Below, piece by piece: positions 5,843 to 32,243 of a stretch of DNA of 64,000 bases. How positions within the stretch are numbered: position 1 is the stretch's first letter; each line of letters begins with the position of its first letter. The position numbers were made by a program, and so were the translations under genes. The stretch lies in NCBI GenBank assembly GCA_000004985.1, contig GG738912.1; one strand, 5' to 3'. Origin of the DNA: Naegleria gruberi (taxonomy: Eukaryota). The notes under the pieces were generated by a model. The model was not told the DNA's origin. It worked only from the letters and a program-made list of their open reading frames with translations, and did not search any database.

Positions 5843-5966
5843 GAAACGTGATATTGAGTTTAGTGCAATTTACAAAAAAGCGAAACGTGATCAGCTATCT
5901 TGCAATCTCTTCCAAACATCTGCGTGCGTTTTTAAATTTCATACGAAACGTGATATTGAGTTTAGT
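5843..5966. promoter_or_regulatory. Bidirectional promoter region carrying three copies of GAAACGTGAT (two as a 22-bp repeat gaaacgtgatattgagtttagt). It lies between divergent genes starting at 5655 (-) and 6001 (+).
   Basis: Direct reading: copies at 5843-5864, 5882-5891 and 5945-5966. Confidence 0.4.
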
Positions 5967-6000
5967 CTAACTTTTTCATTCCATTTCAACCTAAAAAAAA

Positions 6001-6918
6001 ATGTTTGAACATAATGATCAAGACAGTGCTGTCACTCTTTCTCTCATCGATTTTCATTCATACATTTCCACCAATTTATTAGAAAAATTCAAAAAGAAAC
6101 TTTGCTCACCTCTTTCTCCCCTGATTGAATTTTCACAGAATTTTACAAAAATTTACAAACTTCCAGAGCCATATGTTTACAATGTGGCAATTTGTCAGGA
6201 GCTTAATTATTTAATTGTCGGCTCGTTTTCAACTATAAATTTTTATAATTTGGTGACTCATGAAGGATTATTTCAAATTCCATTTGATGATGGAATTTAT
6301 GACTTGGATTTGGAGAGGGAAAATTCAGGTCAATTTAATTTGATAGTTTCTAGTAGAAACAATGAGTTATTCAAGTTTAATTTTACTGAAATGATAAAGA
6401 CGAAGGAGTTAGGAGAGCCAATTTGGAAATCTGAAAAGAGATTTAACCAAATTTGGGGTCTAACACGTTTCAAAACTGAAATTTATGTAGTTGATCATAG
6501 AGAGAAAATGTTTGCTTTTGATTTAAAGACAGGAAAATTACGCCATGATATTCAAATCGATCTTTCTGAGAACTTGGTTGATTTGGTTTTCACTCCAGAA
6601 GAGGAAATGATTGTGTGTGGAATAGATCAGTTACACATTTTGAAATTCAATGAAAAATCTAAAGGATGGGAAAAGATTAAAACCTTGGATAACAAAGATC
6701 ATATCATTAACGATTGCTTCAGTGTATGTTATGAAAAAAAGACGAGATTGATCTATCTCACCGACATGTATGGTAAATTATTCATATTCGATAGACAATT
6801 CAACCTATTGAAGGAAGTGGAAGGTTTGTCATATCCATATGGTGTTGCAATTAATGATAAGAATGGAGAATTGTTCCTATGTAACACTGGAGCATGTGAA
6901 ATACTAGTTTACAAATAG
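6001..6918 (+). CDS. Hypothetical protein with NHL-like beta-propeller repeats.
   Basis: Intact 305-aa ORF with A-rich Kozak context. The C-terminal YPYGVAINDKNGELFLCNTGACEILVY resembles an NHL repeat. No other recognisable motif. Confidence 0.45.
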   Translation: MFEHNDQDSAVTLSLIDFHSYISTNLLEKFKKKLCSPLSPLIEFSQNFTKIYKLPEPYVYNVAICQELNYLIVGSFSTINFYNLVTHEGLFQIPFDDGIYDLDLERENSGQFNLIVSSRNNELFKFNFTEMIKTKELGEPIWKSEKRFNQIWGLTRFKTEIYVVDHREKMFAFDLKTGKLRHDIQIDLSENLVDLVFTPEEEMIVCGIDQLHILKFNEKSKGWEKIKTLDNKDHIINDCFSVCYEKKTRLIYLTDMYGKLFIFDRQFNLLKEVEGLSYPYGVAINDKNGELFLCNTGACEILVYK

Positions 6919-6997
6919 GTCAAATCATTTTTTTTACAATTTTATTGAATTTTTCAATAAATCTCAATAATTTCAATCGAATAGATGATTATCAACA

Positions 6998-7103
6998 TAT
7001 TGGAATGCAATCACATCCACTGATTTACAAATTGGATAACAAAATAGATTTATTGGAATGCAATCACATCCACTGATTTACAAATTGGATAACAAAATAG
7101 ATT
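6998..7103. repeat. Perfect 53-bp tandem duplication in the upstream region of the gene at 7137.
   Basis: tattggaatgcaatcacatccactgatttacaaattggataacaaaatagatt occurs twice back to back (6998-7050 and 7051-7103). Confidence 0.8.
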
Positions 7104-7136
7104 TCAAAATTCTCAATTTTTAAAAATTAAAAAAAA

Positions 7137-8288
7137 ATGTCCAAACCATCGGAACAAAAATCATCATCTCCGACTATTGCCGCCACCACTGATGAAAGTA
7201 AACAATCACAGTGTGGATGTAGTGGTCATCATCACCATCAACATCATGAAAAACCACTCAAATTATTTTCCATGTATCCAGAGTTGGAAGAAGTGACCCC
7301 GAAGGATGTTAGTAAATCAGCACTTCATGCCATTTTGGTTGATGATAACAAATTCCTTTGGAGTGGATACAGAAAATTACCAGTTAGTGATTATTGGAGA
7401 TCTTTTCTTTCCGTTTTTACACTCCATAATGAAACTATTAATATTTGGAATCACTTTATACCATCATTGATTTATTGTGTTTTTGCTTTTTATATTAATC
7501 ATTATGTAACTGAGGCTAATCCGAATGCCAAGTTTTTGGATAGAGCAAGTTTTATCTTTTATTGTGTTACTGGTATTTTCACATTTGGATTCAGTGCAAT
7601 GTATCACACTTGGAGAATGAATAGTATTAATGATTATCATTTCTGTTTATTGTGTGATATTAGAGGTATTGTTGTACTTGTTTCAGGTGCCAATGCTTTG
7701 AGTATTACTTTGCAAATTAAGGATTATGAATATTGGCAATGGATTTACTCTACTGTTAATATTGTTTTGGTTGTCTTTTTCATCTTTTGGATTAGAAAGA
7801 TGGTTAGAGAGAGATTGACTAATCAAAGAACAATTTACTTTACCATTTACAGTCTCATTCCTTTATTTACCTTGGTTCATCGTTTCATTTTGCAATCATC
7901 CTCAGTGAATGATTTCTATAGTATGATCAAGTATTGTATCTTGCCAAGATCAACTCACGAATATTTTGGAATTTCTCATGCCCATGTTAATTTGAATATT
8001 AAGGATATCATGTGGCAAGATAATCACTCAACTAATTCTTATTTCCCTAATGGAGTTTTGGATGTTAATTATGAATTAGTTCAACTTTTCATTGTCAATT
8101 ATTTACTTTTAGGTCTTGGAATGTTCATCAGAGGTTACAAGGCACCAGAAAGATGGATTCCTTACAAATTTGATTTATTTGGAGCTAGTCATCAAATCTT
8201 CCATTTCATGTCAGTTTATGCCAGTTTTTTAGTAGTTCACGGATTTTACATTTTATATTCTCAAGGAGCTTTCCCAGATCGTTTGTAA
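7137..8288 (+). CDS. PAQR / hemolysin-III family 7-TM receptor (adiponectin-receptor-like) with an N-terminal His-rich tract.
   Basis: PAQR motifs HNETINIWNHFIP near the N-terminus and HQIFHF in the last TM. Seven predicted hydrophobic segments. Contains CGCSGHHHHQHHEK. Confidence 0.7.
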   Translation: MSKPSEQKSSSPTIAATTDESKQSQCGCSGHHHHQHHEKPLKLFSMYPELEEVTPKDVSKSALHAILVDDNKFLWSGYRKLPVSDYWRSFLSVFTLHNETINIWNHFIPSLIYCVFAFYINHYVTEANPNAKFLDRASFIFYCVTGIFTFGFSAMYHTWRMNSINDYHFCLLCDIRGIVVLVSGANALSITLQIKDYEYWQWIYSTVNIVLVVFFIFWIRKMVRERLTNQRTIYFTIYSLIPLFTLVHRFILQSSSVNDFYSMIKYCILPRSTHEYFGISHAHVNLNIKDIMWQDNHSTNSYFPNGVLDVNYELVQLFIVNYLLLGLGMFIRGYKAPERWIPYKFDLFGASHQIFHFMSVYASFLVVHGFYILYSQGAFPDRL

Positions 8289-8625
8289 ACTATAAATTCC
8301 GTCTTCTTTTGTGTTGTAATGGATTCGAATATAATTTTCAATAATTCAATAAGCAAATTTCAGAACACAAATTTTTATCCAAACCGCAGTCATGTAAATA
8401 ACCTGGGAAGTGATACAAAAGTTTCATTCTGCTGTCTCGAGTCATTCCCCTTTTGCAATAGGGACATTTGAAAAGTGACGCATCATATTTCATCATTAAA
8501 AAAATTAAGCATTTGTTTCGTTTTTAAACCACCGGCGGTTGATTCATCTTCTACAAAATCAACAAACAACAAATACGCGTCCTTGTCGGTTGTGCTTTCA
8601 ATTTTTAAACGAAACTAAACTAAAG

Positions 8626-10101
8626 ATGAAGAGTCTGTTAGTTCTTCTCATGTTATTAGGAGTGGCTACTCTTCTAATGATGATCACTCCAGCAAGCCTT
8701 CAAAAAGAGCTTCCAATTACAATTCAATCATCAACAAAGGACAAGGTTATGGATGAATATTTAAAACAAATTACAGTCGAAACTATTGATTCAAATGATG
8801 ATTCAGGTAACAAGACAGTTAATTGTTGTAATGTTTGCCCAGTTCCAAAGATTATTATTATTCCAAAATATACAACAATCAAAGTTCCAATTAATATTCC
8901 ATATCCAGTATTGAAACCAATTCCACCACATCACGATGATGATGTTGTTGATAAATGTCCATCTGATTATCAATTCGTTCCACCAAACAAGTGTTCTAAA
9001 ACAATAATTATTGAAAAGAAGAAGAATTGTCCAATTGGATTTATTAGAATTGGTGAAACTGAATGTTTGAGATTGGTTATTATTCATAATAATATTCCAC
9101 CAATGAAAGTTGTTTGTCCACCTGGATATATTCCATTTGTAATTTCAAAGAATTCAGAGGAATATTTGAAATTGAAGGATTTACCAAAGGATTTACCTTC
9201 TAATGATTTCTTCTTTAAGAATGATACAAAGAATACTGTTTTAGGATGTAAGAAGAGTAAGAAAATTCATATTGATGAGGAAATTCCACATTGGACTTGT
9301 CCAAAGGGTTATTATTATCATTCTCCTTTCCATTGTGTTAAATCAGTTGAATGTCCAAAGAAGGGTGGTTGGATCAAGTTGACCGATGGTCGTTGCATTC
9401 GTACTTTATTCAAATGTCCACGTGGTTATAAGAAAGTTGGTAGACATGGGTTGACCTGTATCAAGATTAACATGAAATGTCCAAAGGGATACAGACAATC
9501 AAAGAAGAATCCACGTTTATGTTTAAAGACAAAGATCATTGTCAAGATTAAGTGTCCAAAGAAATCAATTTACAGTGAAGAAAAGAAGACCTGTATCTGG
9601 AAGAAATGTGCTACTGTCAGATGTAATGGAGCTTTGAAATGTCCAAAGGGTCAAATCTTGGCTCTCAAATCCAAGAAGGATTGTTGTCCATCATGCGTTC
9701 CATGTGCATGCTCTGCTGAATACCATCCAGTTTGTACCAAGGATGGTGTCACTGTTTTCAATTTGTGTTCTGCCAAATGTTTGGGATTGGAAGTTAAACA
9801 TGAAGGTGAATGTAAGATTACTGAAATTATCAAGATCACCAAGACATGCCCACCATGTGATCAATGTAAGAACGTTCCAAAGAAACCAGTTTGTGGTGTT
9901 GATGGTGTGACCTATCCAAACACTTGTGTTGCCAAGTGTGTCACTTCTGGTAAATTCGAAATGAAGAGAAAGGGCAAATGCAGTCCTGCTGATTGTGACG
10001 AAGCTGAATCCAATAAGACTGTCTCTGAATTCCTTCCATTCTTTGAACGTGTTTTAAAGTCTGAATTGATCAATGCCAAACAAAGAAAGCAAAAGAAATA
10101 A
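8626..10101 (+). CDS. Secreted cysteine-rich protein with two C-terminal Kazal-type inhibitor domains. The likely start is the Met at 8626 preceding the signal peptide.
   Basis: Signal peptide MKSLLVLLMLLGVATLL. Many CPxGY Cys-rich repeats. Kazal signatures CxxEYHPVCTKDGVTVFNLCSAKC and CKNVPKKPVCGVDGVTYPNTCVAKC. Confidence 0.65.
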   Translation: MKSLLVLLMLLGVATLLMMITPASLQKELPITIQSSTKDKVMDEYLKQITVETIDSNDDSGNKTVNCCNVCPVPKIIIIPKYTTIKVPINIPYPVLKPIPPHHDDDVVDKCPSDYQFVPPNKCSKTIIIEKKKNCPIGFIRIGETECLRLVIIHNNIPPMKVVCPPGYIPFVISKNSEEYLKLKDLPKDLPSNDFFFKNDTKNTVLGCKKSKKIHIDEEIPHWTCPKGYYYHSPFHCVKSVECPKKGGWIKLTDGRCIRTLFKCPRGYKKVGRHGLTCIKINMKCPKGYRQSKKNPRLCLKTKIIVKIKCPKKSIYSEEKKTCIWKKCATVRCNGALKCPKGQILALKSKKDCCPSCVPCACSAEYHPVCTKDGVTVFNLCSAKCLGLEVKHEGECKITEIIKITKTCPPCDQCKNVPKKPVCGVDGVTYPNTCVAKCVTSGKFEMKRKGKCSPADCDEAESNKTVSEFLPFFERVLKSELINAKQRKQKK

Positions 10102-10539
10102 ATTCTTCCTCAACTGTTTTGACCCCAATATTGAAAAGATCATAAAAATCTTCGCACCAATCACTTGACTATAAATTATAATGGCTCATATATGAAGTGA
10201 GTTTGAGGAATTTTAAATCTTAAAATCCCTTAACAAATTGTGATGAGCTCCACTACTATCAGTCTGAATTTATTTTACTATGTGCCATCCCGATCTCAAT
10301 TTTTGAATATTAATGTACTTATCGACTTTAAAAAAAATACTTTACGGAACAAGCGTATTCTTGTGGATTTGTTGTTGCGCGAACATGGAACATTAAGAAT
10401 TGTTTGCGATATGTTTGATCAGAAAAAACTGCCAATATTCCAGCTATCATTATTATCATCGTGATGGAGGTAAAACTTGCAGAAGGTTGGTATTTTCTCG
10501 AAGGGTTGTTTTCATAATAATAATAATTAATGAAATGAA

Positions 10540-11124
10540 ATGTTAATAGAGAATGTTATATTTTCGGATGATGTTTGTTTTGAGATAATTTCCATGATTG
10601 ATGATTCTTGGTTTATTTTGAATAATTGTTGTTTAATTTCAAAACAATGGTTTAATGTGATCAAGGAACGTTCAAAACTTGTTATTCAATTTAACGAACA
10701 ATTTACAGAAAATAGAATTGAATTGTTAATGAAAAGTCAATTCATGAATAGTATTGTAAATGTTAAGTTTTCTTATATGTTGCTTAACTCTCCAGATCAA
10801 GTTAAATTCATAACTGAAATGAAACAATTAACATCACTTAGTATTGCTGGCAATCAAATTGGTGTAGAAGGAGCCAAATTTATAAGTGAAATGAAACAAT
10901 TAACATCACTTGATATACATGATAATGGAATTGGTGTAGAAGGAGCCAAATACATTAGTGAAATGAAACAATTAACATCACTAAATATTGCTGACAATCA
11001 AATTCATGTAGAAGGAGCCAAATTTATAAGTGAAATGAAACAATTAACATCACTTAATATATATTATAATGGAATTGGTGTAGAAGGATCCAAGTACATA
11101 AGTGAAATGAAACAATTAGCGTAG
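10540..11124 (+). CDS. F-box-like + RNI-type leucine-rich-repeat protein. It appears C-terminally truncated relative to its paralog at 55480..56667.
   Basis: The N-terminus resembles the F-box-like region of the 55.5 kb gene (…FEIISMIDD…LISKQWFNVIKERS). It is followed by 4.5 near-identical 24-aa LRR units (EMKQLTSLxIxxNxIGVEGAKFIS) and ends abruptly in a stop. Confidence 0.5.
   Translation: MLIENVIFSDDVCFEIISMIDDSWFILNNCCLISKQWFNVIKERSKLVIQFNEQFTENRIELLMKSQFMNSIVNVKFSYMLLNSPDQVKFITEMKQLTSLSIAGNQIGVEGAKFISEMKQLTSLDIHDNGIGVEGAKYISEMKQLTSLNIADNQIHVEGAKFISEMKQLTSLNIYYNGIGVEGSKYISEMKQLA
10816..11124 (+). repeat. Near-identical 72-bp tandem repeat array (4.3 copies) encoding the LRR units of the gene at 10540.
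   Basis: gaaatgaaacaattaacatcact recurs at 10816, 10888, 10960, 11032 and 11104 with exact 72-bp periodicity. Confidence 0.8.
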
Positions 11125-11574
11125 AATAAAACGTGTAACTTTATTAATGTCTTATATCAATAACAGCCTGAGACCAAATCGTTATACTAACTTAGATTCT
11201 TTGCGGGGATTTGGTGTTTTGTTGATATTTAAGGCTGCCTTACATTGTAAAGATTCGTTATTTTAATGGCCTCTCTGTGGAGTATTATGAATGTGATTGA
11301 TTATTTTCCAAACATTGATGAGTTTACGTAAGTCAAACAATTCAGTGATTGGTTTTGAAGCGTTTTCTTGTCACTAAATAGGATGCTCCGATGGTGCTTA
11401 ATAAACTGATGTGCTGTAGTCTTTTCCATAATTATTTAAAGTCAAATTTCTCAAAAAACAATCATTTCTCATACCTTATTACTTCATTACGACTGTCGTG
11501 TTAGATGTTGTTCGTAGACAATTTGATTATTCAACGAACTGGACGATTACGATATTTCACATTTCACAAAAAAA

Positions 11575-12895
11575 ATGATTCAACACCAAGTCATCAAGTG
11601 CATTGTTCTGTTTTTCGTGTTGATTATTGCACAACTGATGCTATTGATGATCAATGTGAATGGCATGACCATCACAACGATGACCACTCCATCTGCATCA
11701 GCATCTTCATCACAATTTCTCAACGCTCAAGCTCCTGAAATTTCCTATCGGAATGGAAGATTTCTCCGAGATAAGAGTGCCATTGTTTTTGATTGGAGTG
11801 GATTCATCATTTCCACACAATTTACTCATCGTGAGAATGCCTCTCAACCTATCAATTCATTAAAGATGGTTGTTCATTTGGATGATCCAGGAAATTTGTA
11901 TAATTGTTACTTGTGGAAAATTAGTGAAAATAAGAGAGTGAAATTGTTGCAGGAAAATGTCTTGACAACTGTTAAGGGAGAAAATGCATTTGGATTGGTG
12001 TTTAATTGGCCTATGGATAAGGATTCTCAATCATATGTTGTTGAAATTGAAATTGAGAAGAGAACTGAAGCTATGGTTGGAGTTGTTCAATTTTATGGAA
12101 TTACCTTTTTACAATCTGTTCAATTAATTCAAAGAAATTCAATGAAATTGAAGGAGAAATCAAGTACTGATCTCAAGATTGAATTCATTGGAGACTCAAT
12201 TACATGTGCATATGGAAATATGGGTAAGCCGCCTTGTGCCTACACTCCTGCCACTCAAAACGTACATGAAAGTTTTGTTGAAAAGACAGCAAGATATGTC
12301 AATGCTAGTGAAATTCACATTGAATGTTGGTCTGGAAAGGGTGTAGTTCGTAATTTTGCAGATAAGAACACTACCAGTGTTGATCCATTCCCAGTTTACT
12401 ATCCAAGAACTTTGGCAAATGATGCAAACAGTGTTTGGGAATTTAGAAAGACATTTATTCCAGATATTGCTGTAATTACTTTGGGAACTAATGATTTCAG
12501 TACTGCTCCTAGACCTAGTTTTGAACAATTCTCAAATGGTTATCAGAAATTCCTTGATTTCATTTTTGGAAAGTATGCTCCAATTAAGGGACCATCTTTC
12601 AAGATTGTAATGGTTGTAAGTTTCATTGTTCAAAATTTCATTTCAATTGTTAATCTATTGGATACTATTGGATATGTAGAGTGTTGTGGCCACTGAAAAT
12701 TATGGAGATTACATTCAAAGTATTGCTGAAAAGCAACCTGGATATGGAAAAAATGTTTTCTTTGCTAATTTGAGAGATGTTTGGCGTGGATTTGGACAAA
12801 ATGATTGGGGATGTTCTGGACATCCAAATGAAAATGGTGATGAAAAGTTGGCTCTTGCTCTCAGCTCTTTCCTTTCCAAAAATGTTTTAAATTAA
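11575..12895 (+). CDS. Secreted SGNH/GDSL-family hydrolase, possibly CE2-type esterase-like. Two exons: 11575..12615 and 12680..12895, with a 64-nt intron at 12616..12679.
   Basis: Signal peptide, then GDSITCAYGN (block I) and GTNDFS (block III). After a GTAAGT…tatgtag intron, the catalytic block V DWGCSGHPNENG falls in frame. Joins ORFs 11575..12696 and 12686..12895. Confidence 0.6.
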
Positions 12896-12966
12896 TTTTT
12901 ATTTAATTTTTATTATAATAATGAATTTATTTTTTATATAATTCAATCTCAAAAATTTATTTACAA

Positions 12967-16430: not shown

Positions 16431-16639
16431 TTTTTTTGATTGATGACTTGTTTAACTGAACAGTAATGATTGTTGAGAGATGTTTCACTGACAATGAAGT
16501 CTTTCACTGAAGTGATGAACGAACAGCGAATGCAAAGTACTTCATTGTTAATTATGGAAGTTTTGGTATTAATAATTTTACAGAATTTATATATTTAATA
16601 TTTACTATTATACAAAATGAAGGTTGTGATTCAGAAGAT

Positions 16640-17374: not shown

Positions 17375-18649
17375 TTTTGTTGTTTTGTTTTGATTTTGTT
17401 ATTGTGGAGTTTAGTGGATTGCTTCTCTGACTATTTATTCGAAAGTTAGTTGACGAATAGACCTACCCAAACTTTCAATAATGGAAACACATCAACAGCT
17501 GTACTTACCAACTGAACGAAAATGGAAAGTCATGTTATCTCTCAACCTATTAATACCCTTAAATACCCCAATCTAAACAAACCAACACACAGGCATTCCA
17601 ATAACAATTTTGTTATTTAGGCTATCAGATGATAAAACCATTTCAAAAAAGACTACAGCACCACAGGTTCCCAAGTTGTCTCCAACCTCAGTACTGATGT
17701 GGCTCGACGATGCTTAACTTCTCAAATCGGACGGGATGAGGTGCATTCATCGTGATATGGCCGTAGCCATTAATTTTCATAACGCCTTAATATTGAATAA
17801 TTTCTGCACATTTCTTGATGTCCAAAGATGATGAAAGTTAGATTTGAAGGAACGACTAATTCTTCATTACTAAGCAGCCTCGGTATTCCATATTCCTTGG
17901 TTATTATTTATTGTTTGGGTCGAAGAATCCATATCGGACCGAAGATACCCTGCCCCATTCTTATATTCCATAATGAGAATAATCTGATCATTGGCAACAT
18001 TGAAATTGTAATCAAGAGTTCCAAGAATATTTGGATGTGAATACTTTCTATGAAATTCAAGCTCACTAATTACATGTTTATAAATACGTAACCTGAAAAT
18101 CTTCTTTACCAGATCAGTCCATGTCTGGGTTTGCTCATATTCTTTTGACTATTGGAAACTCTGATTGCAAGATTGAAACATCACTGCATTACTCATACTT
18201 TTCAAAATCTAAATGTTTCTGTGCAATCGCCGACCACTTCTCAATCTTTTCATTAGTAACATGGAAAATAAGATGAATGGCCACAATTCTTCTTCATATA
18301 TTTCAGTAAGTTGATCGAAACATGTTGAACATTAATCTTTGCAAGTAACTCTCTCGTAAAGGAATTGATTTCTGGAAAGGATTCTGCTAGGGAGAATTTG
18401 AAAATACAGCATTGAACTTCCAATTCCATCCTTCAAAACAAATGGTTAAGGAATCGGTTGAGAGAGCGAAAGGATTCTTCTCAATAGAATTGTTAAACTC
18501 AAAGACTTGCATTTTTAAAATTCGAGTTGTATTAAGCTAATGATTAAATAGTGAGAAAAATAGAGTTTCATGTGTGCAACTTAGAACATCAAAGAACAGT
18601 AGGTTCTTACTGCTAATTATTATTATTGATTTTTTCTGATTACAAAAAA

Positions 18650-19243: not shown

Positions 19244-19336
19244 GGAGGTTATTATTCCAACTATAATTGTTTTCCAAGAGGAATATAGTCGATTTTGGAA
19301 TTATTAAGGATCCAATCTGGTCTGTTAATAAACAAA

Positions 19337-23736: not shown

Positions 23737-24379
23737 ATGGCACAAAGAAGAGTAATGAAGGATTTGACAACACTGCAACAAGTACCTATTGAAGGATTGA
23801 CTGCTGGACCGATCGGAGATGATGTTTTTAGTTGGAATGGGTATATTGATGGACCTGTAAGTGTTTGATGATTTAAATGTTGGAAATAATTGTATTTACT
23901 TGTTTTGGAACTAATTAGGTGGATACACCATATGAAGATGGAGTTTTTAAAGTCAAAATTACATTTCCAACTGATTATCCTTTCACTGCTCCACGATTGA
24001 GTTTTGGTAAGTTTATTGAACCAGTTGAAAATTCTATAAACTTTAATAGTGACACCAATTTATCATCCAAATGTAAATAGTGACGGGAAAGTTTGTCTCT
24101 CAATACTAGACAAGGACTGGAATCCCTCTGTAAATATATCACAAGTATTAATGAGTAAGTATTCGAAATATTATTTTGAAATATTCACTTGTAACAGCTG
24201 TACAATTACTACTCAAAGAACCAAATCCTGAAAGTGCAGTTCTTCCTAGCATTGGTAAACAATATGAGGATGATCGTGAAGCATTCAATAAGGAAGCTAG
24301 GAAACACACTCAGGAACATGCAAAGAAGAAAACAGAGGAAGAGAACAAAGAGGAAACACAGGAAAAAGAGGAGAAATAA
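23737..24379 (+). CDS. E2 ubiquitin-conjugating enzyme with a Lys/Glu-rich C-terminal tail. Four exons: 23737..23856, 23919..24006, 24050..24154 and 24198..24379.
   Basis: UBC fold motifs are reconstructed across three GTAAGT introns (62, 43 and 43 nt). They include …[14 protein letters not shown]|[35 protein letters not shown]|[15 protein letters not shown]… with the HPN motif and active-site Cys. Confidence 0.75.
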
Positions 24380-24484
24380 ATTTATATATATTAATTAATT
24401 ATTAATTATTAATTAATAATTTAAATAGGCAATTGATCATAAGGAACAAATATTAATAATACAAAAAAAATAGATCGCAACACC

Positions 24485-25810: not shown

Positions 25811-26027
25811 AACTAATAAACATGAAGCAACATTTTCTTGCAACTCAACCTCTCATTACTAATTAAGCCAATTGGGGATTGATATTAATTTTCAAACAAT
25901 AACAAAAACTTCACTAGTACTTTACTGTTCTGATCCTTCTTACTCATGTTAATAAAAACCAAACTTTCAAACACTTTCTCTTCTCCACGATTTGTCCAAA
26001 ACCAAAATCATATGGCTCGCCACGTTA

Positions 26028-26098
26028 CCGTCTCGGGAGGAATCGAACCTCCGTCAATGGATTCAAAGTCCACTATGCTACCATTACACCACGAGACG
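26028..26098 (-). tRNA. tRNA-Gln, anticodon UUG.
   Basis: Minus-strand sequence CGTCTCG-TG-GTGT-AATGGTA-GCAT-A-GTGGA-CTTTGAA-TCCAT-TGAC-GGAGG-TTCGATT-CCTCC-CGAGACG-G. It has a perfect 7-bp acceptor stem, a GG-containing D-loop, a TTCGATT T-loop, and TTG in the anticodon loop. No intron. Confidence 0.8.
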
Positions 26099-26362
26099 AG
26101 CACATTAAGGTTGATTATAATTTAGTTATTACACTCATGACCATTTTCAATCTGTACTGTATTTGCGTTTCATGTCCCTTTGCTAAATTACATTGTATAA
26201 GAAAGGACTTGGAACATATTGCCATTTACAATTCAAAACGTAGAAACATTTTTTCTTGCTCTTCCTCATTACTTATTAAGGCAATAGAAGATTTGGCGCC
26301 TTTAAAATTCACACTTTCAAACAATTTTTCACAAACAAAAAAACAACAACACCACAACCAAT

Positions 26363-27433
26363 ATGAACAGAAAGGCCATGATTTCACTTTCCCCACTTTT
26401 ACTGTGTACAGTGCTGTGTACAGCCCTCACACAGGTCACACCCTCCTCACCTGACACCACAAATTATTATTTTCTATCAAGAGAGCCATCGTCATCAATT
26501 CTTAATATTATCCATCAAGAACACACTGATAATATTATAATAATTAATGATTGGCTTAATGATCTTGCCATCTCCTATTGTGTGATGTTAATTTACGCAC
26601 TCATCATGCTAGCCATGTCCCTCCAGAATCATCTTTCCACAGGAGAGCAATTTCTCAATGATGAAGAAGTATCCTCATCAATAGAGACTCAACACACATC
26701 TTCTCAGATAACAACAGAGGAGAGTGAAGGCAATGATCATGGCGATAAGGAGGTGGACGATCTGAATATGAGTATGATCGAAATGGTACCCGAGATTGTT
26801 GAAGAAGGTGGCTCCCAAGATTTTCCATCCATTGAAACACAGAATCCTCTCACCATCTCAACTCTCTACTCCCATTCCAAGATAACAGAAGGTAATGATG
26901 ATAAGGAAGGTGAAGATTCTGATACGCTCGAAGAAAGTTCCTTTGATTTATCTTACATTGAAACACCACGAAGAGAATCAAAAGACTTGCATCATGATTA
27001 CAGTCCTAGTGATGCATCAACCATAACTCCAAGAAGCCAATCAGATTTGGATCGCTCAGACCTCAGTATTGTGTCCTCTCCAAATGATGAAGAATCAACG
27101 TTACTAGATTGTTCTCTCAATCATGATGATTTTGAAATCAATGAACAATTTACTGAACCACCACCATCAGAAACAACTTCTTTTGAAGAATTAATGGCAA
27201 GAAACCTTGAACGTATCACATCATTAAACAGTGAAGTAATGAATGAATTTGCAAAGGAAGCAAGTATAATCCTTGCACAACTTCAAGACATTAAGGGTTA
27301 CAATAATGTGGAAGAAGTTGAGAAAGAAGAATTTCTTTTCAGCCTTGCAATGGAAATCTATGAAACAAGATTAATCAGAATGGATGTGGAGGCCCAAAGA
27401 ATTAATCTCAAAATTCAAAACCTTACAATTTAG
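26363..27433 (+). CDS. Hypothetical acidic Ser/Asp/Glu-rich protein with a hydrophobic N-terminus.
   Basis: Intact 356-aa ORF with ATG context caaccaatATG. Low-complexity acidic sequence, no recognisable domain. The exon structure is uncertain. Confidence 0.35.
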   Translation: MNRKAMISLSPLLLCTVLCTALTQVTPSSPDTTNYYFLSREPSSSILNIIHQEHTDNIIIINDWLNDLAISYCVMLIYALIMLAMSLQNHLSTGEQFLNDEEVSSSIETQHTSSQITTEESEGNDHGDKEVDDLNMSMIEMVPEIVEEGGSQDFPSIETQNPLTISTLYSHSKITEGNDDKEGEDSDTLEESSFDLSYIETPRRESKDLHHDYSPSDASTITPRSQSDLDRSDLSIVSSPNDEESTLLDCSLNHDDFEINEQFTEPPPSETTSFEELMARNLERITSLNSEVMNEFAKEASIILAQLQDIKGYNNVEEVEKEEFLFSLAMEIYETRLIRMDVEAQRINLKIQNLTI

Positions 27434-27989
27434 GAAATTGTATTGTATTTGATAAACTATCTTCAATTTTCATTATAATTTCATAAATTTGTGTTTCTCT
27501 TTTCCAAGTTTCATCAATTCCAATCGCTTCAACATATGGAGATGGATCAGGAACAATCCATGATGTTTGGCATCACATCCATCTGGGTCTTCTCACTATG
27601 TTTATTATCATGTGAAGTTTGTTAAAAATGTGTGTCCCATCTCCAACTATGGAGCACATGGAATGGCTGGAACACTAGGAACATTAACAATGTTTGTTGA
27701 TGTTCTGGTTTCAATGATTAGAAGTGTCAAAGGTATTATTTACAATGGAATTGAAAAGTATCGTGTTACTTTCTTTTAACATATCTTTCAACTCGCTTCT
27801 GTTGTAAACTAAAAACGCCATTTGTTAAAAACGACACTTTTCAAAAATGTACCTACTTAAAAATCTCCAAATTTGAACAATTACAATATTCTTCCATAAT
27901 TGTTCACTGACAAGTGTCAAATAAATAGAAGCTTCCACCTGCCATCCATCACTTTTTCACAAACAAAAACAAAAACAAATACAACAAAC

Positions 27990-28349
27990 ATGTCCTATCC
28001 AATTCCAACTCCATACGAATGGTCAACCACTCTCGATATTGGCAATGCTGAATTAAACGAACAACATAAGAAACTCTTCACTTTAATCAATGCCTTGGAT
28101 GCCAAGAGAAGTTGTGGCACAACATTGAAGGAATTATTAGATTACGTTGTTTTCCACTTCAAGACTGAAGAAGATTTGTTTGCTAAGGCTGGTTGGTCTG
28201 AATCTGCCTCTCATAAGGAAACTCATGATAAGTTTGTTCAGGATGCTTTGGCATTGACAAGCGTTGGAGATGGTGAGATGCAATTTATTAAGCAATGGTT
28301 GATTACTCACATTTGTGCCTCTGATATGAAGTATAAGGGTGTTATTTAA
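27990..28349 (+). CDS. Hemerythrin (O2/iron-binding HHE-domain protein), about 119 aa.
   Basis: Aligns along its full length to metazoan hemerythrin: …YEWSTTLDIGNAELNEQHKKLF…HF.TEE.LF…HKETHDKFV…WLITHICASDMKYKGVI, including the conserved His/Glu iron ligands. Start is the internal Met at 27990 (acaaacATG). Confidence 0.75.
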   Translation: MSYPIPTPYEWSTTLDIGNAELNEQHKKLFTLINALDAKRSCGTTLKELLDYVVFHFKTEEDLFAKAGWSESASHKETHDKFVQDALALTSVGDGEMQFIKQWLITHICASDMKYKGVI

Positions 28350-28600
28350 ATATTATCCTTTTTTGTAATTTTAGTAAAAAAACAATTTTGTAAATTAGTT
28401 TATTTTTTGATATTGTCGGCAAAAGTGTTCGAAATAGTCTTCCTCTGATTCATGTCTCACTCTGATTGTTCATATGAAATTGGAACGGTTATTAGAAAGC
28501 TCATCTAAAACAAGAGGTTAATGGACATATTAGATTTGTTTTGAATAAATGCAATTAAAGAACTCAATTAGACTTAAGTATTTAAAATTTACTGGAATTT

Positions 28601-30513
28601 TCAGGTTAATGACATTTTATACCAACAATTGATTTCTTCTAATTTTTTTTCAATAGAACTCAAAGTCAAATGTTCTTGTAAAGTTTCAACAAACGTTTCA
28701 CAATTGCGCAAAGTAGTGTTTGCTTGATGGGTGTTACCAAATACTTTTTGTTTGATTACTGACATCTTACCTTTAACAAAGTATACCTTCTCAGTCAATT
28801 CATGCAATTTTTCCCACATTTCAGAATTTTCCTCTGGTTGACTGAGTGAAATCTGATTGTTACTGAATGTGAATTTTTCACTGAAGAATGTTGACCTACT
28901 CACTACATCATGTACATTAACAGTAAACACGCCGTCTTGGTCAACTCTGCATTCAACACATATTTTATGGTTAGAGGCAGGCTTTTGATCAATTTTTATG
29001 ATTGAATTGGTTAGTAATTCTAACATTGAGCTAATTTCAGATTCTCCCTCTCTGAAGGTCAAATTAATCTCTTTCGTTTCGTCTGATGAATTTGTAACTG
29101 CCAATAGTTTTTTACAAGGCAAAGGTGTTCCCTTTTCCAGAACCTTAATTAAGGAATTATTTTGATATTCCTTAATTCGAATAGTTCTTGAAAGACATTC
29201 AGTAATAGGAATGGCTTGTTTTTGATAAAGATCATGAGCCAAGTAGGCAGCTCCATAACTAACGATATAAATTATGTCACTATTTTGTGGTCTAGTAATT
29301 GTCTTTAACAAGTCAACTCACTGTCAAGTTATTAAATCTTACTTACAACTCCAGGTAGTTCATCTTGCACCCAATCTTTCACAAATGGAATAAGAGATGA
29401 TCCTCCAACCATAAGAACCTCATTAATATCACATCCAAGTTCTTTAAATTTTGAAATTAAGGTCTGGACCCTTTTTTGGAACGCCTCCTCACAATCTCTC
29501 TTAAATTGCTCATAATTCACAGAAATAATCAAAGATAAATCATTCTCAGGAATCTCAATACTAAAGTATTCAACATTTCGTCTAGTTGAACATAAGGTTT
29601 CTTTCAAAATTCTTGCCTTTGCACTCAACTTGTGTTTAACTTCTTTCTTTAAATTATTCAACTGAGATGTCAATGATTTTTCTTCGAGTGTCATGGAAGA
29701 TGCTCCAAACCAAACAGGTTTAATGTAATTTTGGAAAACCAAATTATCAACATCAACACCTCCCAAAGTAGAATCTCCCTCAACCCATTTCACAATAAAT
29801 TCCAATTGACTATCATGATTTTTACAAACTTGAATGAGTGAAATGTCCAAAGTTCCACCACCAAAATCAAATACCAAGTAATTACCTTCCCCTCTTTGAG
29901 GATCTTTCTTAAAATAGTAATAGGCAGCTGCGGATGGTTCTGGTAATAATTTCAAAACCTTAATGTTTGATTTTCTAGCTGCTTCCAAAGTTGCATTCTT
30001 TTGGAAAACTCCAAATTCAGCTGGAACTGTAATGACTGCTGGAATTTCTTGATCTTTTCTAAATACGGTTACATTTTCAAGAATTTTTTGAGCTACCAAT
30101 TCTGGAGAAATGTCAAGAAACTTTCCGTTTTCAAATACGAAACGACATGTGGCAAGTTGGTTCTCTTGATTAGCAACTATTTTGTAATCTAATTTCTTTT
30201 CATTTTCTTGAATGACGGCCACTTGATTGTCTTTTCTATCCAAACATTAAGAATAGTCAAAGTTTCGTCAACTAACTTACCTTTTACCAATGATTCGTTT
30301 AGTTTCTGTAGCGTAGAGAACACCATTAACATCTTCCAATTCTCCAACACCAGTTTGAAATGATTCTCCGTTTATACAGCTTACATTCACAACAGAGTTT
30401 TGGAAATTACATGATCCTTGTGAAATATATTTCGTATATCCAAATTCATCAATGTACGAAACAATGGTTGTGCTAGTACCTAGATCAATACCAATACACT
30501 TAATATCACTCAT
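28601..30513 (-). CDS. Divergent Hsp70-like protein (A). Three exons: 30281..30513, 29347..30235 and 28601..29302, with introns at 30236..30280 (45 nt) and 29303..29346 (44 nt).
   Basis: Motifs IGIDLGTSTTIVSY, …IIGKR|KDNQVAV…, AVITVPAEF, LLPEPSAAAYYY, LVFDFGGGTLDISL, LGGVDVD, LMVGGSSLIPFV and …NSDIIYIVSYGAAYLA are kept in frame by GTAAGT donors and AG acceptors. Joins ORFs 30277..30654, 29332..30243 and 28601..29311. Confidence 0.7.
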
Positions 30514-30562
30514 TTTTTTTAAAAGAAACACATACTTCACATCATGCATGACATATAAACTA

Positions 30563-30626
30563 TCACGTTTTCGAATAAACCCACTCACGTTTCGAAATTT
30601 AGAGTTTACAATATTCACGTTTCGAA
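30563..30626. promoter_or_regulatory. Promoter of Hsp70-like gene A, containing three copies of TCACGTTT(T)CGAA (reverse complement of …GAAACGTGA).
   Basis: Copies at 30563-30575, 30585-30596 and 30615-30626, immediately upstream of the ATG at 30513. Confidence 0.4.
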
Positions 30627-30634
30627 TCAATCTT

Positions 30635-32101
30635 TTAATTGATATTTTTAACAAACGAAACCTTATAATTTCTAATCATCAGCTCCCTCAGAATACAACC
30701 AACAGAAATCATACTGCCATTATTCAAATATCTACGATTTTCTCCCTTTTTGAATTTTGACAAGCTTGGAATATTCCACAATCCTCCAACAAGTAGTAAT
30801 TGATTACTGTTAAATATTGGCATATTTTCATCAAGAGTTAATTCAGGAAATTCGCTTCTTTTGATAAAAACTGGTCCTTCAAGACTATCCTCTCCAAAAA
30901 TCATTCTAATAGTTTCGGATATAGAAATTTCGTCATCTTGACCATATTGATACATATTCATCATGAGTTTGTTCATTTGAAATGTAAATTTTGCACTTCT
31001 TTCGTCTTTGATATCATTCGTTTTCAATTCTCCATTTTCATACCTGTAATTCAATTTGCAACGAACCAAGATTCGATTACAAAAATCTGAAAGTATTTTA
31101 ACTCCACTAAAACTGAAGCTATATAATACTGTGGATTCGAATACTAGGGAATTGGAATCTTTCCTCACTATACATTGATAGGTGCCTGTACCTGATAAAT
31201 TGAAAATGCTGAACTGAATGCTCATTTCTTTGAATTGTTGCAGAGACGTTTCGTCAGGTTCTTTTTTAAAATCTAACTGATAGAATTGAGCTACATAATA
31301 TGAAATTACAGCCTCGTGCTCAAAACAAGTAGAATTGTTTACAATCTTACTGTCACAATGAAGCTCCCATCCGTATGGAATGGCTGTAATAAATTTCTTA
31401 TTCGAATCTTCATCAATTTGTTTTGAAAATGCTCCAATTAAATGATATATTAAATTACTATTCAATTTTCTTTCTGGAATATTTGAGAATTTTCTGAAAT
31501 ATTCAATGGAAAGCGCTGGTTGACCTTCTGTGATCTCTAACACTTGTTCTCCAATCATATTAGAATAAAATACAGAGGTTATTCTTGTTGAATACAGATC
31601 ATTAATTTTTGATGAACCAATGTTATGATAACTTGCTTGTGAATAAAAAGTTCCACAATCAATTCCAATAATTTGATGAATTTTGTATTCACTTTCCTCC
31701 ATAATTGGTTCCACAGGGTTCTCATTTGAATTTTTCTCGATAGATGTTTGGGTTTCATAATTTTCAACAATTACTTGGACATCCCCTTCCAAATTTTCAT
31801 TCATTTTACAATAGTTAATATGGTTTTCTTCTTCTTTTGGCTCCTCAATTGACATTCTCTTCTCCGTCTTAATTTTACAATCACTTTCATCATTCATAAC
31901 CCATTCTCCCATAATTTCATTCCTCATATGAACTATTTTTAAATCCTTTACATTAGTTTGCTGAGTTCTACATTGTTTGTAATCATCAAATGCACTATCG
32001 TCATCCGTGCTGTGTTGACTCGTAATAATTAATTTTTTGATAGACCTTTTGAATGTTGTGGCTGATCTTTTAATTTTTTGAAACGCCATTTTCTTTTGCA
32101 T
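30635..32101 (-). CDS. Highly divergent Hsp70/actin-fold ATPase-like protein (B) with a ~160-aa N-terminal extension.
   Basis: IIGIDCGTFYSQASY (phosphate-1), FNLSGTGTYQCIV (DLGGGTFD-like) and LLLVGGLWNIPSL (VGGSTRIP-like). The ATG at 32101 is the first true ATG; the ORF-track start at 32140 is TTG. Confidence 0.5.
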   Translation of the reverse strand: MQKKMAFQKIKRSATTFKRSIKKLIITSQHSTDDDSAFDDYKQCRTQQTNVKDLKIVHMRNEIMGEWVMNDESDCKIKTEKRMSIEEPKEEENHINYCKMNENLEGDVQVIVENYETQTSIEKNSNENPVEPIMEESEYKIHQIIGIDCGTFYSQASYHNIGSSKINDLYSTRITSVFYSNMIGEQVLEITEGQPALSIEYFRKFSNIPERKLNSNLIYHLIGAFSKQIDEDSNKKFITAIPYGWELHCDSKIVNNSTCFEHEAVISYYVAQFYQLDFKKEPDETSLQQFKEMSIQFSIFNLSGTGTYQCIVRKDSNSLVFESTVLYSFSFSGVKILSDFCNRILVRCKLNYRYENGELKTNDIKDERSAKFTFQMNKLMMNMYQYGQDDEISISETIRMIFGEDSLEGPVFIKRSEFPELTLDENMPIFNSNQLLLVGGLWNIPSLSKFKKGENRRYLNNGSMISVGCILRELMIRNYKVSFVKNIN

Positions 32102-32243
32102 AAAAAACGTGAAGTTTACAAAAAGTTGGTCAACCAGCAATCACGTAATCACGTTTGTTATTAATAGAAAATATAAAACGTGAAACCTGTGGAAATAATC
32201 GATTTTTGCAATCAACACTTTCTAATAATTATTTCAAAAGAAA
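32102..32243. promoter_or_regulatory. 142-bp bidirectional promoter between Hsp70-like genes B (-) and C (+), carrying several ACGTGA-core motifs.
   Basis: AAAACGTGAAG (32103-13), TCACGTAATCACGTTTG (32141-57) and AAAACGTGAAAC (32176-87). Confidence 0.4.

What the first reader, a model, noticed from the sequence alone, without database searches (positions are those of the whole stretch)
5843..32243. Recurring GAAACGTGA motif in several promoters, including all three clustered Hsp70-like genes
Eight or more copies of an ACGTGA-core element with a conserved GAAA 5' flank occur in three short intergenic promoters: three at 5843-5966 (kinase / NHL-like bidirectional promoter), three at 30563-30626 (Hsp70-like A promoter, reverse orientation), and three at 32102-32243 (Hsp70-like B/C bidirectional promoter). 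Two of the 5.8 kb copies are a perfect 22-bp repeat. In the 30.5 kb set the motif is followed by TTCGAA. This clustering is unlikely by chance in AT-rich intergenic DNA and suggests a common transcription-factor site, possibly stress-related. It is not a canonical HSE spacing.
Basis: seen in the sequence. Interest (0 to 1): 0.5.

Follow-up and report, generated by a model that had tools for sequence, protein, structure and literature searches.

The report
Clustered AAACGTGA promoter element in Naegleria
Four neighbouring, fast-evolving genes of the amoeba Naegleria gruberi carry three to four copies each of the same 8-base word (AAACGTGA) just upstream of their start codons, which is most likely the docking site of one transcription factor that switches them on together, but the factor and the trigger remain unknown.

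Summary
The window is Naegleria gruberi nuclear DNA. Ten ACGTGA copies, nine of them the 8-mer AAACGTGA, lie in three short intergenic regions (5843-5953, 30563-30622, 32105-32183). In 14.5 kb of non-coding DNA, 0.58 copies of the 8-mer are expected (P about 1e-8). It is the most over-represented of all 8-mers in an unbiased scan.

Corrections:
- The G of GAAACGTGA is present in only 5 of 10 copies, and in none at 32.1 kb.
- The 32.1 kb region holds four ACGTGA copies, not three.
- Gene 'B' is an orphan with no demonstrable Hsp70 domain.
- The motif sits next to the beta-propeller gene, not the kinase.

The flanks differ between copies. The copy nearest each gene ends 47, 48, 60 and 61 nt before the four ATGs. 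A PWM finds no other promoter in the window with a site.

The best reading is a homotypic cluster of binding sites for one ACGT-core transcription factor (bZIP or bHLH type). No canonical heat-shock element is present and a stress link is unsupported. A genome-wide test was not possible with these tools. It is a new member of a known kind, of moderate interest.

The parts
5844..5851 (+). AAACGTGA copy 1 of the 5.8 kb cluster (GAAACGTGA from 5843). It is the first arm of the 22-bp perfect repeat 5843-5864. Its 3' end is 150 nt before ATG 6001.
5883..5890 (+). AAACGTGA copy 2 (CGAAACGTGAT), 111 nt before ATG 6001
5946..5953 (+). AAACGTGA copy 3, the proximal copy. It is the second arm of the 22-bp repeat 5945-5966. 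Its 3' end is 48 nt before ATG 6001. It has the highest PWM score (18.9).
6001..6918 (+). Target gene NAEGRDRAFT_74253 (305 aa), a probable beta-propeller with a weak NHL signal
3070..5655 (-). Divergently transcribed protein kinase gene (861 aa). The motif copies are 190-300 nt upstream of its ATG and antisense to it, so it is probably not the primary target.
30563..30570 (-). AAACGTGA proximal copy of the A promoter (TTCGAAAACGTGA). Its 3' end is 47 nt before ATG 30516.
30585..30592 (-). AAACGTGA middle copy (TTCGAAACGTGA), 69 nt before ATG 30516
30615..30622 (-). AAACGTGA distal copy (TTCGAAACGTGA), 99 nt before ATG 30516. It lies only about 13 nt beyond B's stop codon, within the expected 3' UTR of B.
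28601..30516 (-). Hsp70-like gene A: three exons and two GTAAG-type introns. It forms the C-terminal part of the fused NCBI model NAEGRDRAFT_74267.
30635..32089 (-). Gene B (484 aa), an orphan protein. It contains IGIDCGT, FNLSGTGT and LLVGGLWNIP, which resemble the Hsp70 nucleotide-binding motifs, but homology is not demonstrable.
32105..32112 (+). AAACGTGA copy in the orientation of gene C, 132 nt before ATG 32244 and 18 nt from B's ATG
32141..32148 (-). Variant copy TTACGTGA, directly abutting the next copy (ACGTGATT ACGTGATT). PWM score is 10.4.
32149..32156 (-). AAACGTGA copy in the orientation of gene B. Its 3' end is 60 nt before ATG 32089.
32176..32183 (+). AAACGTGA copy in the orientation of gene C. 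Its 3' end is 61 nt before ATG 32244.
32087..32098 (-). 12-nt leader CAAAAGAAAATG ending in B's ATG. It is a perfect inverted repeat of the leader of C.
   Evidence: (I1)
32235..32246 (+). 12-nt leader CAAAAGAAAATG ending in C's ATG
   Evidence: (I1)
32244..34058 (+). Hsp70-like gene C = NAEGRDRAFT_81760 (604 aa; Pfam HSP70 E 1e-62)

Best explanation
AAACGTGA (extended consensus [C][G/A]AAACGTGA[T]) is a cis-regulatory DNA element of Naegleria gruberi. It occurs as homotypic clusters of three to four copies in the 85-345 bp upstream regions of four genes: the beta-propeller gene NAEGRDRAFT_74253, Hsp70-like A, orphan B, and Hsp70-like C (NAEGRDRAFT_81760).

Inferred mechanism: one sequence-specific activator that reads an ACGT core binds the copies. 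It is most plausibly a bZIP or a bHLH(-Zip) protein contacting a TCACGT half-site plus an A/T-rich second half. The copy nearest the gene sits about 50-60 nt before the ATG, roughly where a factor would need to be to recruit the basal machinery in these very short promoters. The four genes would therefore be switched on together.

Shown: the enrichment, the clustering, the discreteness of the word, its orientation and position relative to the ATGs, and its absence from the other roughly 33 promoters in the window.

Inferred: protein binding, the class of the factor, co-regulation, and the inducing condition, which is unknown.
For: (1) Enrichment. There are 9 AAACGTGA in 14.5 kb of non-coding DNA against 0.58 expected (P about 1e-8). 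It is the top 8-mer in an unbiased scan. The 9-mer occurs 5 times against 0.46 expected.

(2) Confinement. All copies lie in 3 of 38 non-coding segments. PWM scores of the sites are 13.9-18.9, while every other non-coding position scores 9.9 or less, so no other promoter in the window has a site.

(3) A discrete element, not a duplicated promoter. In an alignment of the 10 sites with 20 nt on each side, only AAACGTGA is invariant. Pairwise local alignments of the four upstream regions do not exceed the shuffled nulls beyond the motif. A and C are only 32% identical as proteins, and the fourth gene is unrelated and 24 kb away.

(4) Orientation. In the only tandem intergenic region (B then A), 3 of 3 copies are in sense to the downstream gene. 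At 5.8 kb, 3 of 3 point to the nearer gene. In the B/C divergent region, the copy nearest each gene points to that gene.

(5) Position. The proximal copy ends 48, 47, 60 and 61 nt before the ATGs of the beta-propeller gene, A, B and C. B and C form a mirrored promoter with identical 12-nt leaders.

(6) Conservation. In a 98.96%-identical strain (metagenome contig L001), all 7 cores in the two intergenic regions it covers are intact. The 5 substitutions and 2 indels in these regions fall outside the cores.

(7) Precedent. ACGT-core words are bound by bZIP and bHLH factors. The yeast bHLH Pho4 uses both CACGTG and CACGTT as core sites (PMC1131890), and the reverse complement of the motif is TCACGTTT.
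Against: There is no expression, TSS or binding data. Only one 64 kb window (0.15% of the genome) plus one near-identical strain could be examined, so genome-wide enrichment upstream of genes is untested.

Three of the four target genes are adjacent. Some copies are clearly recent local duplicates: the 37-nt unit at 5.8 kb and the mirrored B/C arrangement. The number of independent occurrences is therefore smaller than 9.

The strain comparison has almost no power: 1.4 changes are expected in the cores, and P(0) is about 0.2.

The motif is not palindromic, which is unusual for homodimeric bZIP or bHLH sites.

The NCBI gene model treats the 30.5 kb region as an intron, not a promoter.

The closest homologues of C elsewhere have no such cluster upstream.
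Confidence: 0.6

Rival explanations
1. The motif is a core-promoter or TSS-positioning element, a TATA/initiator substitute used by a subclass of Naegleria genes, rather than an activator site. The proximal copy fixes the start site and the extra copies are redundant.
For: The proximal copy is at a nearly fixed distance from four ATGs (47, 48, 60 and 61 nt). It is strictly oriented towards the gene. The promoters are extremely short: 118 bp between B's stop and A's ATG. N. gruberi UTRs are very short (median 3' UTR 39 nt; PMC11529991), so -50 from the ATG could correspond to about -30 from a TSS.
Against: Only 4 of about 37 genes in the window have it. Each promoter has 3-4 copies spread over 50-110 nt, which is typical of activator sites and not of a positioning element. 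The distances fall into two classes (47/48 and 60/61) rather than one.
Confidence: 0.15
2. The pattern has no function. It is a by-product of local sequence duplication (copied promoter pieces of tandemly duplicated genes) plus post hoc selection of a word by the reader.
For: Two of the 5.8 kb copies belong to a 37-nt duplicated unit, with 22 nt identical. The B/C region is mirrored, with identical 12-nt leaders. A, B and C are adjacent. NHL_up and A_up share a weak 38-column similarity around one copy (score 28 against null 18.2 +/- 2.6, maximum 33).
Against: The word ranks first among all 32,896 8-mers without prior choice. The flanks differ between regions. A and C diverged to 32% protein identity, so neutral promoter DNA from that duplication should be unrecognisable, yet the 8-mer is exact in 9 copies. 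The 5.8 kb gene is unrelated to the Hsp70-like genes. Orientation and distance to the ATG are non-random.
Confidence: 0.12
3. The motif acts at the RNA level. The copies lie in the 5' UTRs (or, at 30.5 kb, in an intron or 3' UTR) and act on mRNA stability, translation or processing.
For: All copies are in sense to a downstream gene. The NCBI model NAEGRDRAFT_74267 places the 30.5 kb cluster in an intron of a fused B-A gene. The distal 30.5 kb copy lies within about 13-20 nt of B's stop codon, inside the expected 3' UTR of B.
Against: The fused model's intron starts GTTAAA, whereas the two real introns of A start GTAAGT and GTAAGA. B has its own stop, followed by ATTAAA. A has its own ATG in the A-rich context typical of the window's genes. 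In the B/C region, copies of both orientations would have to lie in two opposed 5' UTRs that overlap each other. 5' UTRs of 100-150 nt would be needed in a genome with very short UTRs.
Confidence: 0.06
4. The motif is a heat-shock or unfolded-protein response element, so that these are classical stress-induced chaperone genes.
For: Two of the four genes encode Hsp70-family proteins. The ACGTGA core equals the 3' part of the mammalian UPRE TGACGTGA (my own knowledge, not tested). The 30.5 kb copies overlap TTCGAA, which contains GAA/TTC triplets.
Against: None of these promoters contains an nGAAnnTTCnnGAAn trimer; the three matches in the window are all in coding sequence and at chance level. 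A and C lack signal peptides at their N-termini (MSDIKCIGIDLGT and MITPILVGIDYGT) and are about 30% identical to DnaK, so they are not canonical Hsp70 or BiP. B and the beta-propeller protein are not chaperones.
Confidence: 0.07

Closest known systems
E-box variants read by bHLH(-Zip) factors: TCACGTGA of the Cbf1/USF/TFE class, and the Pho4 core sites CACGTG and CACGTT in yeast PHO promoters
   Same: The reverse complement of the motif is TCACGTTT, which is a perfect TCACGT half of the TCACGTGA palindrome and contains the Pho4 'CACGTT' core (PMC1131890). As in PHO promoters, several copies sit in one short promoter.
   Different: The second half is AAAC instead of TCAC, so the site is not a CANNTG E-box and not palindromic. 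No bHLH protein of Naegleria has been linked to it, and the regulated genes are unrelated to phosphate metabolism. The resemblance to Cbf1/USF/TFE sites is recalled from memory.
ACGT-core elements of bZIP factors (plant G-box/ABRE ACGTG; mammalian UPRE TGACGTGA)
   Same: It shares the ACGTG(A) core. These elements are typically found as multiple copies within 200 bp of the start of inducible genes.
   Different: The 5' half is AAAC, not TGAC or CCAC. It is oriented rather than (pseudo)palindromic. The factor is unknown, and no link to abscisic acid, ER stress or similar could be tested. The comparison rests on my own knowledge.
Heat-shock element (inverted nGAAn repeats bound by HSF)
   Same: It lies upstream of Hsp70-family genes. 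The 30.5 kb copies are embedded in TTCGAAA.
   Different: There is no nGAAnnTTCnnGAAn arrangement. The TTCGAA flank is present at only one of the three regions. The conserved part (ACGTGA) has no counterpart in an HSE.
Short positional promoter words of compact genomes (for example the mimivirus early motif AAAATTGA, or Entamoeba and Trichomonas core motifs)
   Same: It is an exact 8-mer, oriented, within about 50-150 nt of the ATG in very short intergenic regions.
   Different: Those motifs mark a large share of all genes. Here only 4 of about 37 genes carry it, and each has several copies. This comparison is from my own knowledge.

Membership tests
Homotypic cluster of transcription-factor binding sites in a promoter | Three or more copies of one short word within about 150-200 bp upstream of a gene, more than composition predicts | tested here: met
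   There are 3, 3 and 3(+1) copies in regions of 345, 118 and 154 bp, 9 observed against 0.58 expected. It is the top 8-mer of the non-coding DNA.
Homotypic cluster of transcription-factor binding sites in a promoter | The word is conserved while flanking sequence is not (a discrete element) | tested here: met
   Only AAACGTGA is invariant in the alignment of 10 sites. The upstream regions share nothing else above the shuffled null.
Homotypic cluster of transcription-factor binding sites in a promoter | Conservation of the sites in orthologous promoters of other strains or species | tested here: inconclusive
   All 7 cores are intact in a 98.96%-identical strain, but only about 1.4 changes were expected. 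No orthologues exist in more distant genomes.
Homotypic cluster of transcription-factor binding sites in a promoter | Genome-wide enrichment upstream of genes, and co-expression of the genes that carry it | not testable with these tools
No expression tables are held.
Homotypic cluster of transcription-factor binding sites in a promoter | Specific binding by a protein | not testable with these tools
   This needs EMSA, DAP-seq or one-hybrid assays.
E-box (bHLH site, CANNTG) | CANNTG hexamer, usually CACGTG | tested here: not met
   The sites read CACGTT. CACGTG occurs 3 times in the window, all in coding sequence.
bZIP ACGT-core site (G-box, C-box, UPRE) | ACGT core with (pseudo)palindromic half-sites | tested here: not met
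   The ACGT core is present in 10 of 10 copies, but the halves are AAAC and TCAC. TGACGT occurs only 3 times in the window, once in non-coding DNA.
Heat-shock element | At least three alternating nGAAn units | tested here: not met
   GAANNTTCNNGAA and TTCNNGAANNTTC each give 3 hits, at chance level and all in coding regions. None is in the motif promoters.
   There is no Pfam hit even at E<=1 and no BLASTP similarity to C. The only hit in the PDB sequence search is an unrelated one at E = 1.2. There is no homologue in 1.84e9 representatives, and the AF2 model is unusable (pLDDT 31). hhalign places LLLVGGLWNIP on VLLVGGSSRIP and IKRSEFPEL on ITRxxFExL, but with probability 7.9%.
Hsp70 family (genes A and C) | Significant match to Pfam HSP70 | tested here: met
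   C has E 1.2e-62 over profile positions 2-516. The exons of A have E 1.5e-29 and 9.4e-08.

The most novel reading that the evidence does not exclude
AAACGTGA is the recognition word of a Naegleria-specific regulon made of rapidly evolving, lineage-restricted genes: divergent Hsp70-like ATPases, an orphan that may be a degenerate Hsp70 domain, and a beta-propeller protein. These genes would be induced together by a condition other than classical heat shock, for example contact with prey or pathogens, encystment or differentiation. The element would work as an oriented, distance-constrained site that doubles as the core promoter in intergenic regions so short that the upstream gene's 3' end overlaps the next gene's promoter. 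If so, it would be, as far as my limited literature search shows, the first defined gene-specific cis-regulatory code in Heterolobosea.
Probability: 0.2. Interest if true: 0.55.

Novelty: new member of a known kind. Interest (0 to 1): 0.35.

Why it matters
Very little is known about gene-specific transcriptional control in Naegleria or in Heterolobosea generally. My searches found no described promoter motif for this organism.

A short, exact, oriented word shared by a handful of lineage-specific genes gives a concrete handle:
- It can be counted across the genome.
- It can be matched against existing heat-shock, mitosis and differentiation RNA-seq.
- It can be used as bait to fish out the factor.

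It also bears on annotation. The motif cluster, the stop codon followed by ATTAAA, and the non-canonical 'intron' together argue that NAEGRDRAFT_74267 is two genes, not one.

Beyond that it is an ordinary kind of object, a candidate transcription-factor site, and its importance depends on a genome-wide test that could not be run here.

Tried and rejected
(1) Sampling more of the N. gruberi genome through paralogues of the adjacent kinase. Twelve N. gruberi paralogues were found, but the look-up of encoding contigs holds no N. gruberi NCBI genes. No genome-wide or paralogue test was possible.

(2) Scanning IMG/VR for GAAACGTGA pairs, and JGI metagenomes for three AAACGTGA copies 6-36 nt apart. 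The metagenome hits are mostly G+C-rich bacterial 7-nt tandem repeats (GTGAAAC/GTGATGC), plus coding tandem repeats. No locus resembles the window by blastn or tblastn. This was a dead end.

(3) Upstream regions of the closest non-self homologues of C (L242, L243-245). There is no AAACGTGA cluster.

(4) Literature. String searches for the motif return only shRNA scramble sequences. The locus tags and accessions appear in no paper. The N. gruberi heat-shock/mitosis RNA-seq preprint has no supplement held.

(5) Fold of B. The AF2 model has pLDDT 31. The only hit in the PDB sequence search is unrelated, at E = 1.2.

(6) HSE reading: rejected.

(7) TTGTAAAC as a poly(A) signal: rejected. N. gruberi uses AAUAAA or AUUAAA, with UGUA as an upstream auxiliary element (PMC11529991).

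(8) Dispersed repeat or mobile-element relic: rejected, because only 8 nt are shared.

(9) Known RNA genes in the motif regions: none.

(10) My first dinucleotide-shuffle script timed out. It was replaced by Markov-model expectations.


Full report
**Origin of the window.** The 604-aa product of 32244-34058 (+) is 100% identical to 'predicted protein [Naegleria gruberi]' (NAEGRDRAFT_81760), on a 238,573-bp scaffold. G+C is about 33% throughout. The genes are closely packed, with small GTAAG-type introns. This is nuclear DNA of the amoeboflagellate N. gruberi.

**The observation.** GAAACGTGA occurs five times against 0.46 expected: 5843, 5882 and 5945 on +, 30585 and 30615 on -. The bare 6-mer ACGTGA is not enriched window-wide (15 against 11.9). 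But 10 of the 15 copies lie in three intergenic stretches:
- 5846, 5885 and 5948 (+)
- 30563, 30585 and 30615 (-)
- 32107 (+), 32141 (-), 32149 (-) and 32178 (+)

Aligning the ten sites in one orientation shows that the invariant word is AAACGTGA. Nine of ten sites have it, and 32141 reads TTACGTGA. Position -3 is G in five sites, A in four and C in one. Position +1 is T in six.

I masked ORFs to obtain 14.5 kb of non-coding DNA in 38 segments. In that DNA the 8-mer is seen 9 times against 0.58 expected (Poisson P about 1e-8). A scan of all 8-mers with a second-order background puts it first (P 1.7e-8, about 6e-4 after correction for 32,896 words). All nine copies lie in three segments that total 584 bp.

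A PWM built from the sites separates them cleanly. Sites score 13.9-18.9 and the variant scores 10.4. Everything else in the window scores 11.4 or less, apart from one coding-sequence hit at 61967. So the motif is real and highly non-random, and within this window it is restricted to these three regions.

They need correction on three points. The 9-mer is absent from the 32.1 kb region, that region holds four ACGTGA copies, and the 'GAAA' flank is really 'AAA'.

**The genes.**
- Left of the 5.8 kb cluster lies a protein kinase gene (3070-5655, -; Pfam Pkinase E 3e-52). It has 12 N. gruberi paralogues.
- Right of the cluster lies NAEGRDRAFT_74253 (6001-6918, +; 305 aa). It has only sub-threshold Pfam hits to beta-propeller and NHL families. 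A single-sequence AF2 model is all-beta with four-stranded blades (pTM 0.52). That model matches WD40, NHL and BamB propellers in the PDB.
- The three copies point to this gene and end 150, 111 and 48 nt before its ATG. They are 190-300 nt from the kinase ATG and antisense to it.
- Gene C (32244-34058, +) and gene A (28601-30516, -; three exons) are Hsp70-family proteins. They are only 32% identical to each other and about 30% identical to DnaK.
- Gene B (30635-32089, -; 484 aa) is not demonstrably Hsp70-like. It has no Pfam hit at E<=1, no BLASTP similarity to C, only an unrelated hit at E = 1.2 in the PDB sequence search, an unusable AF2 model (pLDDT 31), and no homologue among 1.84 billion representatives other than a 98% twin.
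- B does carry IGIDCGT, FNLSGTGT and LLVGGLWNIP in the order and approximate spacing of the Hsp70 phosphate-1, phosphate-2 and adenosine motifs. hhalign aligns its C-terminal third to the right part of an Hsp70-like profile, but with only 7.9% probability. I treat it as an orphan that may be a degenerate Hsp70 nucleotide-binding domain.

**Is the 30.5 kb region a promoter?** The NCBI model NAEGRDRAFT_74267 (1081 aa) joins B to A and treats about 30502-30649 as an intron. I think this is a mis-fusion, for these reasons:
- B's reading frame ends in its own stop codon at 30635-30637.
- An ATTAAA follows about 12 nt later. N. gruberi uses AAUAAA or AUUAAA 15-20 nt before the cleavage site, and its median 3' UTR is 39 nt (PMC11529991).
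- A has its own ATG at 30516, in the A-rich context shared by most genes of the window, followed by the canonical Hsp70 N-terminus MSDIKCIGIDLGT.
- The proposed intron begins GTTAAA, whereas the two genuine introns inside A begin GTAAGT and GTAAGA.

On this reading, B's mRNA ends inside the motif cluster, and A's promoter is squeezed into about 80-118 bp.

**Architecture.** In the B-to-A tandem region, the only one where orientation is informative, all three copies are in sense to A. They end 47, 69 and 99 nt before its ATG.

The B/C divergent region is mirrored:
- Both genes start with the identical 12-nt leader CAAAAGAAAATG, a perfect inverted repeat.
- Each gene has a sense-oriented copy ending 60 nt (B) or 61 nt (C) before its ATG.
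- Each gene has a TTTTTGYAAWC block between that copy and the ATG.

The proximal copies thus end 48, 47, 60 and 61 nt before the four ATGs. Spacings between copies are irregular (8, 22, 30, 39 and 63 nt). Outside the 8-mer the four upstream regions share nothing above shuffled controls, with one exception. There is a weak 38-column resemblance between the 5.8 kb repeat unit and the distal A copy, which may hint at a longer composite element (CGAAACGTGA-ATATTG-...TCTAA-TTT).

**Comparative evidence.** The only related sequence obtainable was a 3,942-bp contig from an ENA metagenome (ERZ929261). It is 98.96% identical to 30511-34455. All seven ACGTGA cores in both intergenic regions are intact there. 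The five substitutions and two indels in these regions lie outside the cores, and one substitution changes the TTCGAA flank of the proximal A copy to TTTGAA. With about 1.4 changes expected in the cores, this is compatible with constraint but does not prove it.

B has no other relatives. C has none above 31% identity. The upstream regions of C's nearest homologues carry no such cluster.

Attempts to reach other parts of the N. gruberi genome failed. Pattern scans of viral and metagenome collections returned only unrelated tandem repeats.

**Interpretation.** The simplest account is a homotypic cluster of binding sites for one sequence-specific transcription factor that co-regulates these four genes. 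The supporting features are:
- a short exact word
- several copies per promoter
- varying flanks
- orientation towards the gene
- a constrained proximal position
- absence from the other roughly 33 promoters of the window

The ACGT core points to bZIP or bHLH(-Zip) proteins. The reverse complement TCACGTTT is one perfect half of the TCACGTGA palindrome of Cbf1/USF/TFE-type factors (my knowledge). It also contains CACGTT, one of the two core sites of the yeast bHLH Pho4 (PMC1131890). Membership in either site class fails on the defining features. The word is not a CANNTG E-box, and it is not (pseudo)palindromic. The factor class is therefore a lead, not a finding.

The near-constant distance of the proximal copy allows a second reading, as a positioning or core-promoter element.

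Chance plus local duplication is unlikely. The word ranks first without prior choice, it survives in promoters of genes that have diverged to 32% identity, and it occurs at an unrelated gene 24 kb away. But within-region duplication (the 37-nt unit, the mirrored B/C promoter) does inflate the count.

An RNA-level role is disfavoured by the opposed orientations within the 154-bp B/C region and by the short UTRs of this organism.

The stress idea has no support. No canonical HSE occurs in these promoters, and the products are not canonical chaperones.

**Verdict.** The motif is a real, statistically robust, oriented and positioned candidate cis-regulatory element, AAACGTGA. It is shared by two divergent Hsp70-like genes, an orphan between them, and a beta-propeller gene of N. 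gruberi. It is a new instance of a familiar kind of feature. The binding factor, the inducing condition and the genome-wide extent are unknown, and all three can be tested directly with existing public data.

Noticed in passing
window 28601-32089 (-): The NCBI model NAEGRDRAFT_74267 (1081 aa) fuses orphan B and Hsp70-like A across a 'GTTAAA...AG' intron. B has its own stop followed by ATTAAA, A has its own ATG, and the real introns of A start GTAAGT and GTAAGA. The locus is probably two genes.
   Followed up: yes
window 32087-32246: The B/C divergent promoter is mirror-symmetric. It has identical 12-nt leaders CAAAAGAAAATG at both ATGs, sense-oriented motif copies 60 and 61 nt upstream of each, and a shared TTTTTGYAAWC block in between.
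   Followed up: partly
window 6998-7104: A perfect 53-bp tandem duplication (2.0 copies, 100% match) lies in the upstream region of the HlyIII-family gene at 7137-8288 (+). Each copy contains TTTACAAATTGG.
   Followed up: no
window, non-coding segments generally: Two other words are over-represented in non-coding DNA and spread over many different intergenic regions. AGTTTACAA/TTGTAAACT occurs 7 times in 6 segments (0.44 expected). TATTCGAAA occurs 7 times in 7 segments (0.44 expected). TTGTAAA often sits at or just after stop codons in sense, which is compatible with the UGUA upstream poly(A) element reported for N. gruberi. It also occurs in divergent promoters.
   Followed up: partly
window 17650-17768 (-) and 26027-26099 (-): A 5S rRNA gene (Rfam 105 bits) and a tRNA-Gln(TTG) gene are embedded among the protein-coding genes.
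   Followed up: no
L001 (ENA ERZ929261, contig k127_31882): An environmental metagenome contains a Naegleria strain 98.96% identical to the window over 3.9 kb. It has indels only in the intergenic DNA.
   Followed up: partly
L242 (JGI 3300062347, Ga0606064_0156, 45 kb): One of the closest non-self homologues of Hsp70-like C (29% identity) lies on an AT-rich (33% G+C), gene-dense contig with no apparent introns. The contig also encodes ubiquitin, EF-hand, IBR, VWA and S8 peptidase proteins. It could be a giant virus or a compact protist; the origin was not determined.
   Followed up: no
window 40299-41639 / 45313-46611; 41723-43123 / 43443-44735; 10540-11124 / 55480-56667; 51143-55297: The window contains several local paralogue pairs: two unknown proteins 65% identical, two B-box-like proteins 40% identical, and two LRR proteins. 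It also contains an RNA-dependent RNA polymerase fused to Sel1/TPR repeats.
   Followed up: no
window 3070-5655 (-) and P0126-P0137: The kinase next to the 5.8 kb cluster belongs to an N. gruberi-specific family of at least 13 members (37-57% identity, most with DUF4116). Five members are on one 573-kb scaffold.
   Followed up: no
L122-L241 (metagenome scan): Triplets of AAACGTGA in metagenomes are dominated by G+C-rich bacterial heptanucleotide tandem repeats (GTGAAAC/GTGATGC, period 7 or 14). This is unrelated to the Naegleria element.
   Followed up: partly
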